Origin: a bacterium
GTDB lineage: Bacteria > Patescibacteriota > Dojkabacteria > SC72
Direction of reading: 5' to 3'
Length of the DNA stretch: 64,000 nt
Assembly (NCBI GenBank): GCA_021463465.1
Contig: JAJTYH010000002.1
Location: 265,799 to 329,798, forward strand
The position numbers are program-made. Position 1 is the first letter of the stretch. The number at the start of each line of letters is the position of its first letter. Below are positions 33,001-36,000 of the stretch, one piece after another.

Positions 33001-36000
33001 GAAATCCGGACGTGAACTGTAATACGCCCCCCATATCTGGCGCAATTTGGCTTTAGTCTTGTCTAAAAGCTCTTTGTCAGAATACTTATAGGATAGGGTT
33101 ACCGTGACATTTCTAACCAAATCCTCTGACAAATCCCGATACTTTTTACTCTCTAAAACTGATGAGACTACACTATTAACATCCATACTCCAGGATTATC
33201 CCATTAATTGAGATGGATGGCAAAAAAGTGTATAATGCCAGGTCAAAACTAACTATAATTCAATTAAGTTTTTTCTAAGTTTTATGGAATTCGCTAATTG
33301 GTTACTAGCTTTTCAATTCCAAAAGAAGTTTTGGAAATTTTGATTATCATCCCCATATTGGCCACCCTTATCAGTATAGGTCGATACGTTATAGGCCTTA
33401 AAACATTAGGTATATATGCACCAATTGCATTAGCAATTGCATATAAAATGACTGGACTTAGATACGGTTTAGCCCTCACCTTTTTAGTCATTATTGCATC
33501 ACTTATCGGCTACAGATTTTTAAGTAAAGTGCGAATGCACTACACTACCAGAGTTGCAGCTAACTATACCCTGCTCTCAATCTTAGTGATTACTGGAATT
33601 ATTACCTTCGATTCTATTCCTTTTTTAGGACTTAATAATTTTAATCAGATTAGCCCAGTAGGAGTAGTATTAATCGCTACTCTTTCAGATTTTTTCATCA
33701 AAGCCTACATCAAAAAGAGTCTATTTACTTCAATGCGAGTACTACTTGAAACCTTACTCATCTCAGTAATTGGATGGTATATAATCCGTTCCCCAAACAT
33801 TATCGAACTAATATTCCATAACCTTTGGATTATCCCACTCTTAGTTGCAGTAAATCTACTTCTTGGTAGATACAGAGGCTTCAGACTCAAAGAAGTTTTA
33901 AGATTTCAAACTATCCCTAATGATGCGGATACTCGCACTAATAAAAGCTAACCGAACTGTCCTGGGAATCAACCGCAGAAACCAGGAATATGTTCGGCCG
34001 TATAATCCAGTATCGCAGAGAGCTATTGCTGACAACAAAATATTAACTAAACGAGTGCTTGCTAAAGTTGGAATTCAAACTCCTCAAGTATACAAAGTAG
34101 TAAGAACCAAAAAACAATTGCAGTTTTTAGATTGGAATGCCTTACCTAAAAGTTTCGTCCTCAAGCCTAATCAAGGTACTGGAGGTAACGGTATTGTTGT
34201 CTTTTTTGGTAGAAAAAAGAACTCGCTTGAATGGATTCGCCCTAACGGGACTACAATGAGTACTAAAGACATTGCGCTCCATATCGAAAAGATTTTGGAT
34301 GGAAGCTTCTCGATGGGTAACAAACAGGATGTGGCCATCATAGAAGAGCGAATCAAGATAGATAAAGTTCTTAAACCCTACATCTATAAAGGAGTTCCTG
34401 ACGTGCGTGTCATTACATTCAACCGAATCCCTGCAATGGCTATGTTAAGACTCCCTACTAAAAGATCTGACGGTACAGCCAACTTACACTCGGGTGCTAT
34501 CTGCGTAGGAATCGATATGGCATCAGGCCTTACCACTACCGCAATGCACTTAAAGAAGAGGCCATTTGTCGAAGATACATACGTGCAAACAGAATACACA
34601 TTGGACTTGGAACAAAACCTACCTCTGAGAGGAATCAAAATCCCATACTGGGACGAAATTCTTAAGATTGCAATCAAATCACAAGAGGTATCAGAATTAG
34701 GATACCTTGGGGTTGATATTGCAATTGATCTGGACAAAGGTCCGTTGGTTTTTGAAATTAATGCCAGACCAGGGCTCGGCATTCAGGTAGCTAACATGGA
34801 AGGTTTGCGCAACCGACTTGAGAGGCTTAAAGGTTTAAAGGTTAAGAGTACTAACCATGCAATACGCTTGGCTAAGAATCTTTTTGGAGGTGAGATTGAA
34901 GAAGAAATTGAAAGCTTGAGTGGTAAGCATGTAGTAAGTGTAGTAGAGAAGATTCAGGTATTTCACCTAGCTAAAAAGATCGGCTCAAAACAAGACGGTA
35001 CCGGTAAGAAAGAGATGGTTAATGCAATGATGGATACAAGCAAACTGACATCCCGTATCAATGAAAAGTTGGCTTCAACAATCGGACTGTATCCTGATAT
35101 AAAGCGATTCAAAGACCTTCACCTACCCTCTTTCGACTCCCTTCATGATGCACAAGAGTATCTTGAGCAGAACGAACTCAAGCTAATACAAGATACCAAG
35201 ATCAATCGTATCGCTAAAATTGTTTATGATAATAAAGTAATTCTAAGGCCCGTCTTTGAAGTGGTAATTCGCATCGCAAAAGAGATTAAAACCTTTGAAA
35301 TGTTAGTTGATAGGGAGAAACAGATGGGATATTCTGTAGTCATTGGGCGAAAAGATCTAAAAGATTACTTAATTGACCCAAGCAAGACCTTTACACAATG
35401 AGCAATAAGAACTTTTTGAAAATTGCAGGAAATATTCATCTTTCATACTACGTTCAAGCCGCTGACGAGTTGGGAATAAAATACGAGATTGTAATCCCAA
35501 GTCTTACTGCCAAGTTCGACTTTGGAAAAAGACACTGTTACATCAATAACACAGTAATTCCACTAAACAATGCCCCTAGTTCAAAGCTTGCCAGAGTCAA
35601 ACATTTTGCTAACCAGCTTATGGAAAGACATAATGTACCTGTTCCGAAGCAACAGAAGCTTAATAAAGAGATTGATGCATTGGCTTTTTTTGGAAAGTTC
35701 CAGAACATAGTAATCAAGCCTTCACAAAATTTGGGAGGCAAAGGTGTTTCAATCCTGCCAAAAAATGAAGAAGAGGTACTTGAGTCATTCAAATTCGCTA
35801 AGGAACATGATCGGTTTGGTCACGTATTAGCTGAAGAGTATATCCCAGGTGATAATTACCGAGTACTTGTTTTAGGTGATAAAGTGCTTAGTGTTATCAA
35901 AAGAATTCCTGCTCATGTGACTGGAGATGGCAATTCAACTATCCAAAGTCTTATTGAAAAGACAAATGAGATTCGTAAAAAGAACATGCTTATGCCAATT

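What the first reader, a model, noticed from the sequence alone, without database searches (positions are those of the whole stretch)
33298..35401. 7TM protein without its usual transglutaminase module, and an ATP-grasp ligase fused in cis to a retropepsin-like domain
Seen in sequence: the 217-aa protein is essentially only the 7TM module (ending LLLGRYRGFRLKEVLRF). The next gene encodes an ATP-grasp (LGINRRNQEYVRPYNP..DNKILTKRVL..) whose last ~150 aa (nt ~34922-35398) end in MLVDREKQMGYSVVIGRKDLKDYLIDPSKTF. That is the signature C-terminus of the RimK-associated retropepsin-like family (annotated 'ATP-dependent Zn protease'; RimB-like). Established knowledge (comparative-genomics literature, recalled from memory): these three modules usually occur as separate genes, with the 7TM fused to an inactive transglutaminase. 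Inference: this is a rearranged, minimised architecture. The cis fusion argues that ligase and protease-like domain act on the same substrate, probably at the membrane.
Basis: partly seen in the sequence, partly recalled or inferred. Interest (0 to 1): 0.55.

Follow-up and report, generated by a model that had tools for sequence, protein, structure and literature searches.

The report
Fused ligase-protease Rlo system, Dojkabacteria
A candidate-phylum bacterium carries a compact version of the recently described Rlo envelope-stress system: the amino-acid ligase and the HIV-protease-like peptidase are one protein, and the membrane partner has lost its outer domain. The pair sits in a conserved six-gene cluster of peptide ligases and peptidases whose product is unknown.

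Summary

The interpretation needs four corrections:
- The architecture is not a one-off. It is fixed across Dojkabacteria: 62 of 64 complete ORFs in 70 species genomes. It recurs in other Patescibacteria.
- A ligase-retropepsin fusion is already known as RimBK, but with the opposite domain order and a different ligase clade.
- The catalytic Asp-Thr-Gly reads Asp-Thr-Ser here. The family consensus is DTG.
- The pair is part of a conserved cluster (33298-40125) with three more ATP-grasp ligases and a MATCAP-type carboxypeptidase. One relative fuses ligase, retropepsin and MATCAP in a single protein.

Most likely this is a cytoplasmic, membrane-tethered Rlo-like system that builds and trims an acidic peptide or peptide tail. 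The substrate is unknown. I rate it a new variant of a known kind, of moderate interest.

The parts
33208..33236 (+). Promoter-like site (TTGAGA-17 nt-TATAAT, 11 of 12 matches) in the 112-bp divergent intergenic region upstream of the 7TM gene
   Evidence: This is a consensus match only. A terminator-like hairpin at 32400-32421 separates the cluster from the L7/L12 gene.
33298..33951 (+). RloB-core membrane protein, 217 aa. Seven TM helices, no transglutaminase domain, N-out/C-in, basic C-terminal tail GRYRGFRLKEVLRF.
   Evidence: Matches PF14402 at E 5e-21 and NCBIfam RloB model positions 313-505 of 508. Homologues are all 209-252 aa.
33920..35401 (+). Bifunctional RloC-RloA-like protein, 493 aa. 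Its start overlaps the end of the 7TM gene by 32 nt.
   Evidence: The full-length AlphaFold model has pLDDT 84.6.
33950..34837 (+). ATP-grasp ligase domain (residues ~11-306), RloC / ATPgrasp_ST type. The K82, D266, E279 and N281 ATP/Mg motif residues are invariant in the family.
   Evidence: Matches PF14397 at E 5.7e-67 and TIGR02291 at E 1.5e-83. The nearest solved folds are ArgX/LysX and RimK.
34838..34924 (+). Two-helix linker (residues 307-335) holding the conserved acidic motif LFGGEIEEEIESLSG
   Evidence: F322, G323, G324, E327, I330, E331, S334 and G335 are invariant in 67-120 homologues. The same motif occurs in the distant fused relatives P0129, P0135 and P0234.
34925..35398 (+). Retropepsin-fold domain (residues 336-493). 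It has a Lys-rich loop (349-364), a helical insert (about 400-423) before the flap hairpin, and the G476-R477-K-D479 retropepsin signature.
35033..35041 (+). Active-site triplet D372-T373-S374. The family consensus is D-T-G.
   Evidence: Gly is present in 109 of 120 homologues and in 66 of 69 species genomes. Ser occurs here and in a few relatives.
35398..36369 (+). Second ATP-grasp ligase, 323 aa, resembling the cyanophycin-synthetase G domain and GshAB. Its start overlaps the stop codon of the fusion gene by 4 nt.
   Evidence: TIGR02068 at E 3e-67, model positions 165-470. Present next to the fusion in 67 of 67 genomes.
36381..38039 (+). Third ATP-grasp ligase, 552 aa. It resembles cyanophycin synthetase (N-terminal region plus G domain) and lacks the Mur-ligase-like domain.
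   Evidence: NF010623 at E 2e-70 and TIGR02068 model positions 118-570. Present in 59 of 59 genomes.
38036..38974 (+). Fourth ATP-grasp ligase, 312 aa, of the RimK/LysX/CofF type
   Evidence: PF08443 at E 5e-11 and TIGR00768 at E 2e-13. Present in 42 of 42 genomes.
38971..40125 (-). MATCAP/QEGLA-family metallocarboxypeptidase homologue, 384 aa, convergent with the ligase operon and overlapping it by 4 nt. It carries HEVGTH and IEEGLA motifs.
   Evidence: PF08014 at E 2.5e-26 and TIGR02421 at E 6e-31. Present in 37 of 38 genomes. Protein P0234 fuses it to ATPgrasp_ST and Zn_protease.

Best explanation
This is the Dojkabacteria (candidate phyla radiation) form of the Rlo system known from Pseudomonas as RloA, RloB and RloC. 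The parts are rearranged so that all the chemistry happens on the cytoplasmic face of the membrane.

Shown:
- The membrane partner is only the 7TM core of RloB.
- The RloC-type ATP-grasp ligase and an RloA/RimB-type retropepsin domain are one polypeptide.
- The two genes overlap and always co-occur.
- They are embedded in a phylum-wide cluster with three further amino-acid ligases and a MATCAP-type carboxypeptidase.

Inferred:
- The ATP-grasp domain activates a C-terminal carboxylate as an acyl-phosphate. It then adds acidic amino acids, most likely alpha-linked glutamate, to a peptide or protein tail, as RimK does.
- The retropepsin domains dimerise within the oligomeric enzyme. They cut the growing acidic chain internally, which sets its length or releases it. 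They also stimulate the ligase, as RimB does for RimK.
- The MATCAP homologue trims the tail from the C-terminal end.
- The other three ligases add or start further residues.
- The 7TM protein tethers the enzyme to the membrane, or receives or exports the product.

In this genome the active-site Gly is Ser. Cleavage may therefore be weak, and the binding or stimulating role may dominate.
For: - Domain identities are established.
- The nearest solved relatives of the ligase domain add residues to the C-terminal carboxylates of proteins: ArgX/LysX and RimK.
- The Mg/ATP motif residues of the ligase are invariant.
- The retropepsin hallmarks D372, T373 and G476-R477-x-D479 are kept. So is the RPV arginine R443, the probable equivalent of RloA R114.
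- A Lys-rich loop (residues 349-364) and the invariant R379, R430 and K433 give a basic surface. This fits an acidic substrate.
- RimB and RloA cleave runs of 8 or more Glu. RimB binds and stimulates RimK. Loss of rloB or rloC suppresses loss of the RloA proteases, so the protease acts on what the ligase and the membrane protein make (PMC11957051 and PMC11957791).
- The domain has no cysteine and the protein has no signal peptide, which indicates a cytosolic location.
- Synteny across 70 species genomes is strict. The 7TM is present in 49 of 49, the ligases in 67 of 67, 59 of 59 and 42 of 42, and MATCAP in 37 of 38.
- Fusions tie the modules together. P0234 joins ligase, retropepsin and MATCAP. 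P0181 joins two retropepsin domains to a 7TM.
- The C-domain is as well conserved in the DTS clade as in the DTG clade.
Against: - No substrate or product is known, even for the Pseudomonas system.
- The amino acid added by RloC-type ligases has never been determined.
- Pfam names the ligase family 'sugar-transfer associated'.
- The Lys two residues before the catalytic Asp (RloA K46) contacts polyglutamate. Here it is Met, and in the family it is Phe, Met or Tyr.
- The catalytic Gly is Ser here. A few family members even lack the Asp, carrying His or Asn instead. Proteolysis therefore cannot be the only conserved role of the domain.
- Neither dimerisation of the retropepsin domain nor contact with the 7TM protein could be modelled with the tools available.
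Confidence: 0.55

Rival explanations
1. Pseudo-protease. In this genome, and perhaps in the whole family, the retropepsin-fold domain no longer cuts. It serves as a substrate-binding, oligomerising or ligase-activating module, keeping only the non-proteolytic half of what RimB does for RimK.
For: - The motif reads D-T-S here instead of the otherwise near-invariant D-T-G. Other members read DTN, DTT, HTG and NTG, yet keep the whole domain.
- The K46 equivalent is lost.
- RimB is reported to stimulate RimK poly-Glu synthesis and ATPase activity (PMC11957791).
- From memory, not tested here: substitutions of the motif Gly inactivate HIV-1 protease, and such substitutions are found in inactive pepsin homologues.
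Against: - Asp is kept in 118 of 120 homologues, Thr in 120 of 120 and Gly in 109 of 120. The GR(x)D signature and the RPV arginine are also conserved. This pattern is expected for a working active site.
- Gly to Ser is a small change.
- More distant fused relatives have the fully canonical AK(I/V)DTGA.
Confidence: 0.25
2. Glycan decoration. The ligases attach amino acids to a carboxylate on a cell-surface sugar polymer or a lipid-linked precursor. The 7TM protein is the flippase or acceptor, and the peptidases edit the attached peptide. This would resemble stem-peptide or pseudomurein chemistry.
For: - Pfam describes PF14397 as 'sugar-transfer associated'.
- In some genomes a glycosyltransferase gene sits inside the cluster, for example in L001.
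- P0191 fuses ligase and retropepsin to a YdjC-type sugar deacetylase.
- The cluster lies next to mreB in 37 of 38 genomes.
- Pseudomonas rlo mutants show cell-shape, osmotic and beta-lactam phenotypes.
Against: - The nearest structural relatives of the ligase act on protein C-termini.
- The glycosyltransferase insertion is found in only a minority of genomes.
- Adjacency to mreB may be no more than inherited gene order.
- No sugar-handling gene is a constant member of the cluster.
Confidence: 0.12
3. Ribosome modification. This would be a RimK/RimB-type system that adds and removes glutamate tails on a ribosomal protein such as S6, which would explain its position after the L10-L7/L12 genes.
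For: - The cluster follows L7/L12 in 36 of 37 genomes.
- One cluster member (38036-38974) is RimK-like.
- RimBK fusions exist.
Against: - The fused ligase is of RloC type. It scores 49 bits against TIGR00768, whose cut-off is 143, but 280 bits against TIGR02291.
- A 7TM partner is obligatory in this system, and Rim systems have none.
- A terminator-like hairpin and a separate promoter-like site split the cluster from the ribosomal genes.
- The S6 gene is not in the window, so its C-terminus could not be checked.
Confidence: 0.08

Closest known systems
RloABC operon of Pseudomonas aeruginosa and P. fluorescens (Lormand et al. 2025, mBio; PMC12239564 / PMC11957051)
   Different: - The protease is fused to the C-terminus of the ligase. 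It has no signal peptide and no disulfide cysteines, so it is cytoplasmic rather than periplasmic.
- RloB lacks its periplasmic inactive transglutaminase domain.
- The motif reads DTS, and the K46 equivalent is lost.
- Three more ligases and a MATCAP homologue are constant neighbours.
- The host is a Patescibacteria lineage. The paper reports that 96% of RloB hits come from Proteobacteria.
RimBK hybrid enzyme (Desulfotalea psychrophila DP2392; JBC 2025, PMC11957791) and the RimB/RimK pair
   Same: A retropepsin-like polyglutamate endopeptidase and an ATP-grasp alpha-L-glutamate ligase lie in one polypeptide. Both are cytoplasmic. The precedent shows that the protease domain remains active when fused.
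   Different: - The domain order is reversed: RimB is N-terminal in RimBK and C-terminal here.
- The ligase belongs to a different clade (RimK versus RloC/ATPgrasp_ST).
- Rim systems have no membrane partner.
- RimBK occurs mainly in Flavobacteriales and Rhodobacterales. The fusion here is therefore probably an independent event.
Tubulin tail ligases and peptidases (TTL/TTLL ATP-grasp ligases with MATCAP carboxypeptidase)
   Same: ATP-grasp ligases that extend acidic C-terminal tails are paired with a MATCAP-family metallopeptidase that trims them. The window homologue keeps the HExxxH and (Q)EGLA motifs.
   Different: This is an analogy of parts only. No target protein is known. The link between the bacterial MATCAP homologue and this cluster rests on synteny and on one fusion protein.
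Cyanophycin synthetase CphA1
   Same: Two cluster ligases (323 aa and 552 aa) match the ATP-grasp G domain of CphA1, which extends a poly-Asp backbone. The 552-aa protein also matches part of the N-terminal region.
   Different: Both lack the Mur-ligase-like M domain. Their scores (227-238 bits) are far below the family cut-offs (850-877). They are not cyanophycin synthetases.

Membership tests
PF14402 7TM_transglut / RloB | Seven-TM domain that matches the family model above Pfam's gathering score | tested here: met
   75.7 bits against a cut-off of 25, E 5e-21. Seven hydrophobic segments.
PF14402 7TM_transglut / RloB | N-terminal (periplasmic) inactive transglutaminase domain, as in full-length RloB | tested here: not met
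   The protein is 217 aa and starts 10 residues before TM1, with an in-frame stop directly upstream. It scores 67 bits against NCBIfam RloB, whose cut-off is 900, and only model positions 313-505 are matched. All 57 homologues lack the domain.
PF14402 7TM_transglut / RloB | Encoded next to an RloC-type ATP-grasp ligase and a retropepsin-like peptidase | tested here: met
   The genes overlap by 32 nt. The 7TM gene lies upstream of the fusion in 49 of 49 genomes.
RloC / TIGR02291 alpha-L-glutamate ligase-like (PF14397 ATPgrasp_ST) | Match to the family models above their cut-offs | tested here: inconclusive
   PF14397 is met clearly, at 226 bits against a cut-off of 31.4. TIGR02291 is the best NCBIfam hit (E 1.5e-83, 293 of 317 positions), but its 280 bits fall below the 314 cut-off.
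RloC / TIGR02291 alpha-L-glutamate ligase-like (PF14397 ATPgrasp_ST) | Intact ATP-grasp nucleotide- and Mg-binding residues | tested here: met
   K82, D266, E279, N281 and R283 are invariant in 67 homologues. E279-x-N281 aligns with the RimK Mg site.
RloC / TIGR02291 alpha-L-glutamate ligase-like (PF14397 ATPgrasp_ST) | ATP-dependent ligation of glutamate (activity and product) | not testable with these tools
   This has not been determined even for Pseudomonas RloC.
Retropepsin-like PF05618 (RloA/RimB; MEROPS clan AA) | Sequence match to the family | tested here: met
   The window protein alone is sub-threshold (17.6-20.5 bits against a cut-off of 27). The family profile hits RloA 9g58/9g59 and 2pma at E 8e-6 to 2e-4. 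27 of 34 members hit PF05618, the best at E 3e-12.
Retropepsin-like PF05618 (RloA/RimB; MEROPS clan AA) | Retropepsin fold | tested here: met
Retropepsin-like PF05618 (RloA/RimB; MEROPS clan AA) | Catalytic Asp-Thr/Ser-Gly triplet | tested here: not met
   D372-T373-S374 in the window protein. The family consensus is DTG, in 109 of 120 homologues.
Retropepsin-like PF05618 (RloA/RimB; MEROPS clan AA) | C-terminal Gly-Arg-Asp/Asn signature | tested here: met
   I475-G476-R477-K478-D479. G476 is found in 120 of 120 homologues and R477 in 111 of 120.
Retropepsin-like PF05618 (RloA/RimB; MEROPS clan AA) | Homodimer that forms the Asp dyad | not testable with these tools
   Only single-chain prediction was available.
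RloA subgroup (secreted) | N-terminal signal peptide and a conserved disulfide cysteine pair | tested here: not met
   The domain is internal to a cytoplasmic ligase and contains no cysteine (criterion).
RimBK hybrid | RimB domain N-terminal to a RimK-family ligase | tested here: not met
   The order here is ligase then protease. The TIGR00768 rimK_fam score is 49 bits against a cut-off of 143 (definition).
MATCAP / QEGLA (PF08014, TIGR02421), for the neighbouring gene 38971-40125 | Family match and metal-binding motifs | tested here: inconclusive
   PF08014 is met at 92.9 bits against a cut-off of 27. TIGR02421 gives 108 bits against a cut-off of 339. The HEVGTH and IEEGLA motifs are present. 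Their role as metal ligands is recalled from the MATCAP literature and was not tested here.

The most novel reading that the evidence does not exclude
The six-gene cluster (33298-40125) could be a complete writer-and-eraser machine for non-ribosomal peptide tails, fixed in every Dojkabacterium. Four ATP-grasp ligases would write a mixed acidic tail or polymer on a membrane-proximal target, or as a free product handed to the 7TM protein. A built-in retropepsin endopeptidase and a MATCAP-type carboxypeptidase would erase it. This would be a bacterial counterpart of the tubulin tail code. Because ligase and protease are one protein here, it would also identify the long-sought substrate class of the Rlo system as the ligase's own product.
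Probability: 0.2. Interest if true: 0.8.

Novelty: new variant of a known kind. Interest (0 to 1): 0.5.

Why it matters
The Rlo system was described only in 2025. In Pseudomonas it controls osmotic tolerance, cell shape, biofilm formation and beta-lactam sensitivity. Its substrate and the roles of RloB and RloC are still unknown, and it was thought to be essentially proteobacterial.

The Dojkabacteria form matters for four reasons:
- It shows that the 7TM core, the ligase and the retropepsin are the conserved heart of the system.
- It shows that the transglutaminase domain and the periplasmic location of the protease are dispensable.
- By fusion, it ties the protease physically to the ligase.
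- It adds a MATCAP-type carboxypeptidase and three further ligases as constant partners.

This gives a small, soluble, single-polypeptide target for working out what RloC-type ligases make and what the retropepsin cuts. It also provides a natural series of active-site variants (DTG, DTS, DTN, HTG) for separating the catalytic and non-catalytic roles of the domain.

Tried and rejected
The 'usual architecture' claim was therefore checked against the 2025 Rlo paper and the Pfam and NCBIfam names.
- Literature searches for MATCAP, QEGLA or DUF1704 together with ATP-grasp or RimK found nothing. A search for Dojkabacteria plus ATP-grasp found nothing relevant.
- A single-sequence search of PDB with the whole 493-aa protein found only weak RimK matches and no protease. 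A family profile was needed to find the protease.
- I first read the two long helices as replacing the flap. Comparison with canonical relatives shows that the flap hairpin (about residues 430-452, ending in RPV) is present and that the helices are an insert before it.
- The 7TM protein has no detectable relative among solved structures. An unrelated transporter family is therefore neither indicated nor excluded by structure, but the PF14402 match is specific.
- I looked for candidate substrates with acidic C-termini in the window. A TopA-like protein ends in EDSEE and L1 ends in PESE. This was too unspecific to use.
- I tested for relaxed constraint on the C-domain in the DTS clade and found none.
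- The genome survey used the pattern YLID[TAP]S[KN]TF. It therefore samples only the Dojkabacteria-type family. The spread to other Patescibacteria rests on the profile search.
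Full report
**What is in the sequence**

Two overlapping genes lie on the + strand downstream of the L10 and L7/L12 genes. Gene 33298-33951 encodes 217 aa. Gene 33920-35401 encodes 493 aa and overlaps the first by 32 nt. The best homologues are named Candidatus Dojkabacteria or candidate division WS6, so the window comes from a candidate-phyla-radiation bacterium. 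A promoter-like site with 11 of 12 consensus matches lies at 33208-33236. A terminator-like hairpin follows the L7/L12 gene. Both are consensus matches only.

**The membrane protein**

The protein matches Pfam 7TM_transglut at E 5e-21, 75.7 bits against a cut-off of 25. It also matches the last 193 positions (313-505 of 508) of NCBI's RloB model. Hydropathy gives seven segments. The distribution of Lys and Arg gives N-out, C-in, with a basic cytoplasmic tail. A TAA codon directly precedes the TTG start, and the next gene upstream is divergent. There is therefore no room for the transglutaminase domain. All 57 detectable homologues are 209-252 aa and carry only PF14402. No solved structure resembles the protein by sequence.

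**The fusion protein: ligase domain**

Residues 19-303 match PF14397 ATPgrasp_ST at E 5.7e-67. The best NCBIfam model is TIGR02291 (alpha-L-glutamate ligase-like, the RloC family) at E 1.5e-83. Its 280 bits fall just under the curated cut-off of 314. The ATP/Mg residues are invariant in the family. The closest solved folds to the full-length model are ArgX/LysX and RimK. These enzymes add residues to the C-terminal carboxylates of proteins.

**The fusion protein: C-terminal domain**

- *Sequence evidence.* On its own, the C-terminal 160 residues give only a sub-threshold match to PF05618.
  - A profile of 34 homologous domains hits the RloA crystal structures 9g58 and 9g59 and Lpg0085 at E 8e-6 to 2e-4.
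  - 27 of the 34 domains match PF05618 individually.
- *Fold evidence.* The AlphaFold model (pLDDT 85.2) gives only retropepsins as top hits.
  - Foldseek ranks 1-37 are all retropepsins.
- *Family-specific features*.
  - A Lys-rich loop lies before the active-site strand.
  - A helical insert lies before the flap hairpin.
  - An invariant acidic linker, LFGGE(I/V)EE(E/S)IE..SG, precedes the domain. The same linker occurs in fused relatives below 50% identity.
  - The retropepsin Gly-Arg-x-Asp signature is present (G476, R477, D479).

**The catalytic motif**

The family consensus is M-D-T-G-(I/V)-x-T-S-R. Asp is present in 118 of 120 homologues, Thr in 120 of 120 and Gly in 109 of 120. The window protein reads D372-T373-S374. 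Eight of its closest relatives and one distant member share this. Other members read DTN, DTT, HTG or NTG.

At equal divergence of the ligase domain, the C-domain is no less conserved in the DTS group than in the DTG group. All other signature residues are kept. The domain is therefore under constraint whatever the third residue is. This argues for a role that does not depend wholly on catalysis.

Three basic residues coordinate polyglutamate in RloA.
- The residue two before the Asp (K46) is Met here.
- The RPV arginine is kept (R443).
- The 'DR' arginine is kept in this protein (R465) but not in most of the family.

Assigning R443 and R465 to RloA R114 and R137 is my inference from the alignment and from the offset of the signal peptide.

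**How widespread it is**

The best 120 homologues are all 480-503 aa. A scan of one genome per species found the family in 70 genomes. The scan pattern is specific to this family. I then searched those loci with the window's proteins.

| Feature in the 70 species genomes | Count |
|---|---|
| Ligase and retropepsin in one ORF | 62 of 64 complete cases |
| 7TM gene upstream | 49 of 49 |
| 323-aa ligase | 67 of 67 |
| 552-aa ligase | 59 of 59 |
| 312-aa RimK-like ligase | 42 of 42 |
| Convergent MATCAP homologue | 37 of 38 |
| mreB | 37 of 38 |
| L7/L12 | 36 of 37 |

Gene tables for three relatives show the same order. Occasional insertions occur, such as a glycosyltransferase gene or the glycyl-tRNA synthetase gene.

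An exhaustive profile search found 316 cluster representatives. Many are 459-511 aa with the domain at the C-terminus. Pfam confirms ATPgrasp_ST plus Zn_protease in several that are under 50% identical to each other. These have the canonical AK(I/V)DTGA motif and come from Patescibacteria.

Three informative architectures turned up.
- P0234 (916 aa): ligase + retropepsin + MATCAP.
- P0191 (688 aa): ligase + retropepsin + YdjC.
- P0181 (487 aa): an N-terminal hydrophobic helix + two retropepsin domains + 7TM.

**What is known**

*The Rlo operon.* The three modules as separate genes form the rloABC operon of Pseudomonas.
- RloA is a secreted retropepsin dimer that cuts runs of eight or more glutamates.
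- RloB is the 7TM protein with a periplasmic inactive transglutaminase.
- RloC is a cytoplasmic ATP-grasp protein.
- Deleting rloB or rloC suppresses the osmotic, shape, biofilm and antibiotic defects seen when the proteases are lost.
- The physiological substrate is unknown, and 96% of RloB hits were proteobacterial (PMC11957051 / PMC12239564).

*The Rim system.* In the paralogous cytoplasmic Rim system, RimB cuts the glutamate tail that RimK adds to ribosomal protein S6, and it stimulates RimK. A natural RimB-RimK hybrid, RimBK, has been purified and is proteolytically active (PMC11957791).

Fusion of a retropepsin to an ATP-grasp ligase is therefore not new in itself. What is new here is the reversed domain order, the RloC-type ligase, the obligatory trimmed 7TM partner, the host lineage and the extended cluster. 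I found no paper that describes this form.

**Most likely mechanism**

*Shown:* the domain identities, the fusion, the gene overlap, strict co-occurrence with the 7TM protein, three further ligases and a MATCAP homologue, and independent fusions that link these modules.

*Inferred:*
- The ligase extends an acidic peptide or a C-terminal tail.
- The retropepsin domains dimerise within the enzyme. They cut that chain and activate the ligase.
- The MATCAP homologue trims the chain from the end.
- The 7TM protein anchors the enzyme or takes the product.
- Everything enzymatic is on the cytoplasmic side. This fits the loss of the periplasmic transglutaminase domain, the absence of a signal peptide and the absence of the disulfide cysteines that mark secreted RloA.

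I give this 0.55. The rivals are a non-catalytic protease-like domain in this genome (0.25), decoration of a glycan (0.12) and ribosome modification (0.08).

**Verdict**

It misses that this is a lineage-wide system, that a related fusion is already known, that the catalytic glycine is replaced here, and that the pair is part of a six-gene cluster. I rate it a new variant of a known kind, of moderate interest. Its main value is as a simple, single-polypeptide route to the unsolved chemistry of the Rlo system.

Noticed in passing
window 32407-33186 (-): A 259-aa protein, divergent from the cluster, matches the Rmt family of 16S rRNA (guanine1405-N7) methyltransferases. This is the type that confers aminoglycoside resistance. 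It scores NF000466 E 1e-57, 195 bits against a cut-off of 250, and PF07091 FmrO E 1e-18. tblastn finds it at this position in only 3 of the 70 related genomes (L006, L036, L053); a PF07091 gene also sits there in L001.
   Followed up: partly
P0234 (916 aa, metagenomic): A single protein joins ATPgrasp_ST, Zn_protease (retropepsin) and MATCAP domains. This fusion links bacterial MATCAP/QEGLA carboxypeptidases functionally to Rlo-type ligase-protease systems.
   Followed up: partly
P0181 (487 aa, metagenomic): The protein has an N-terminal hydrophobic helix, then two tandem retropepsin domains (IDTGAD and VDSGSE), then a 7TM_transglut-like domain ending in GLRLSELVRFRF. The protease pair takes the place of the transglutaminase on the outer side of the membrane. 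It amounts to a covalent pseudo-dimer tied to RloB.
   Followed up: no
window 34892-34924 (residues 325-335 of the fusion protein): The acidic linker E-I-E-E-E-I-E-S-L-S-G lies directly before the retropepsin domain. It is more conserved than most of the domain and is shared by relatives below 50% identity. It could be a self-cleavage site or a pseudo-substrate. This was not tested.
   Followed up: partly
window 30213-30860 (+): A 215-aa ORF with a lipoprotein-like N-terminus (MLALSACSPSKDEQ) is inserted between the L1 and L10 genes. An ORF of similar size and no Pfam match occupies the same position in relatives (214 aa in L001; 120-158 aa as called in L004/L005).
   Followed up: no
window 18309-20405 (-) and 29329-30027 (+): A 698-aa topoisomerase-I-like protein ends in ...KEDSEE, and ribosomal protein L1 ends in ...KPESE. 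These Glu-terminated tails are the kind that RimK-type ligases extend. They are noted only as possible substrates.
   Followed up: no
L001 14207-16439, and L012, L018, L045 (gaps between the 552-aa and 312-aa ligase genes): In some Dojkabacteria a GT4 glycosyltransferase gene and an uncharacterised gene are inserted inside the ligase cluster. In L002 the glycyl-tRNA synthetase gene is inserted instead.
   Followed up: partly
window 40154-41176 (-): mreB lies immediately after the MATCAP homologue. It keeps this position in 37 of 38 related genomes. Pseudomonas rlo mutants have cell-shape defects, so this may be meaningful, or it may be no more than inherited gene order.
   Followed up: partly
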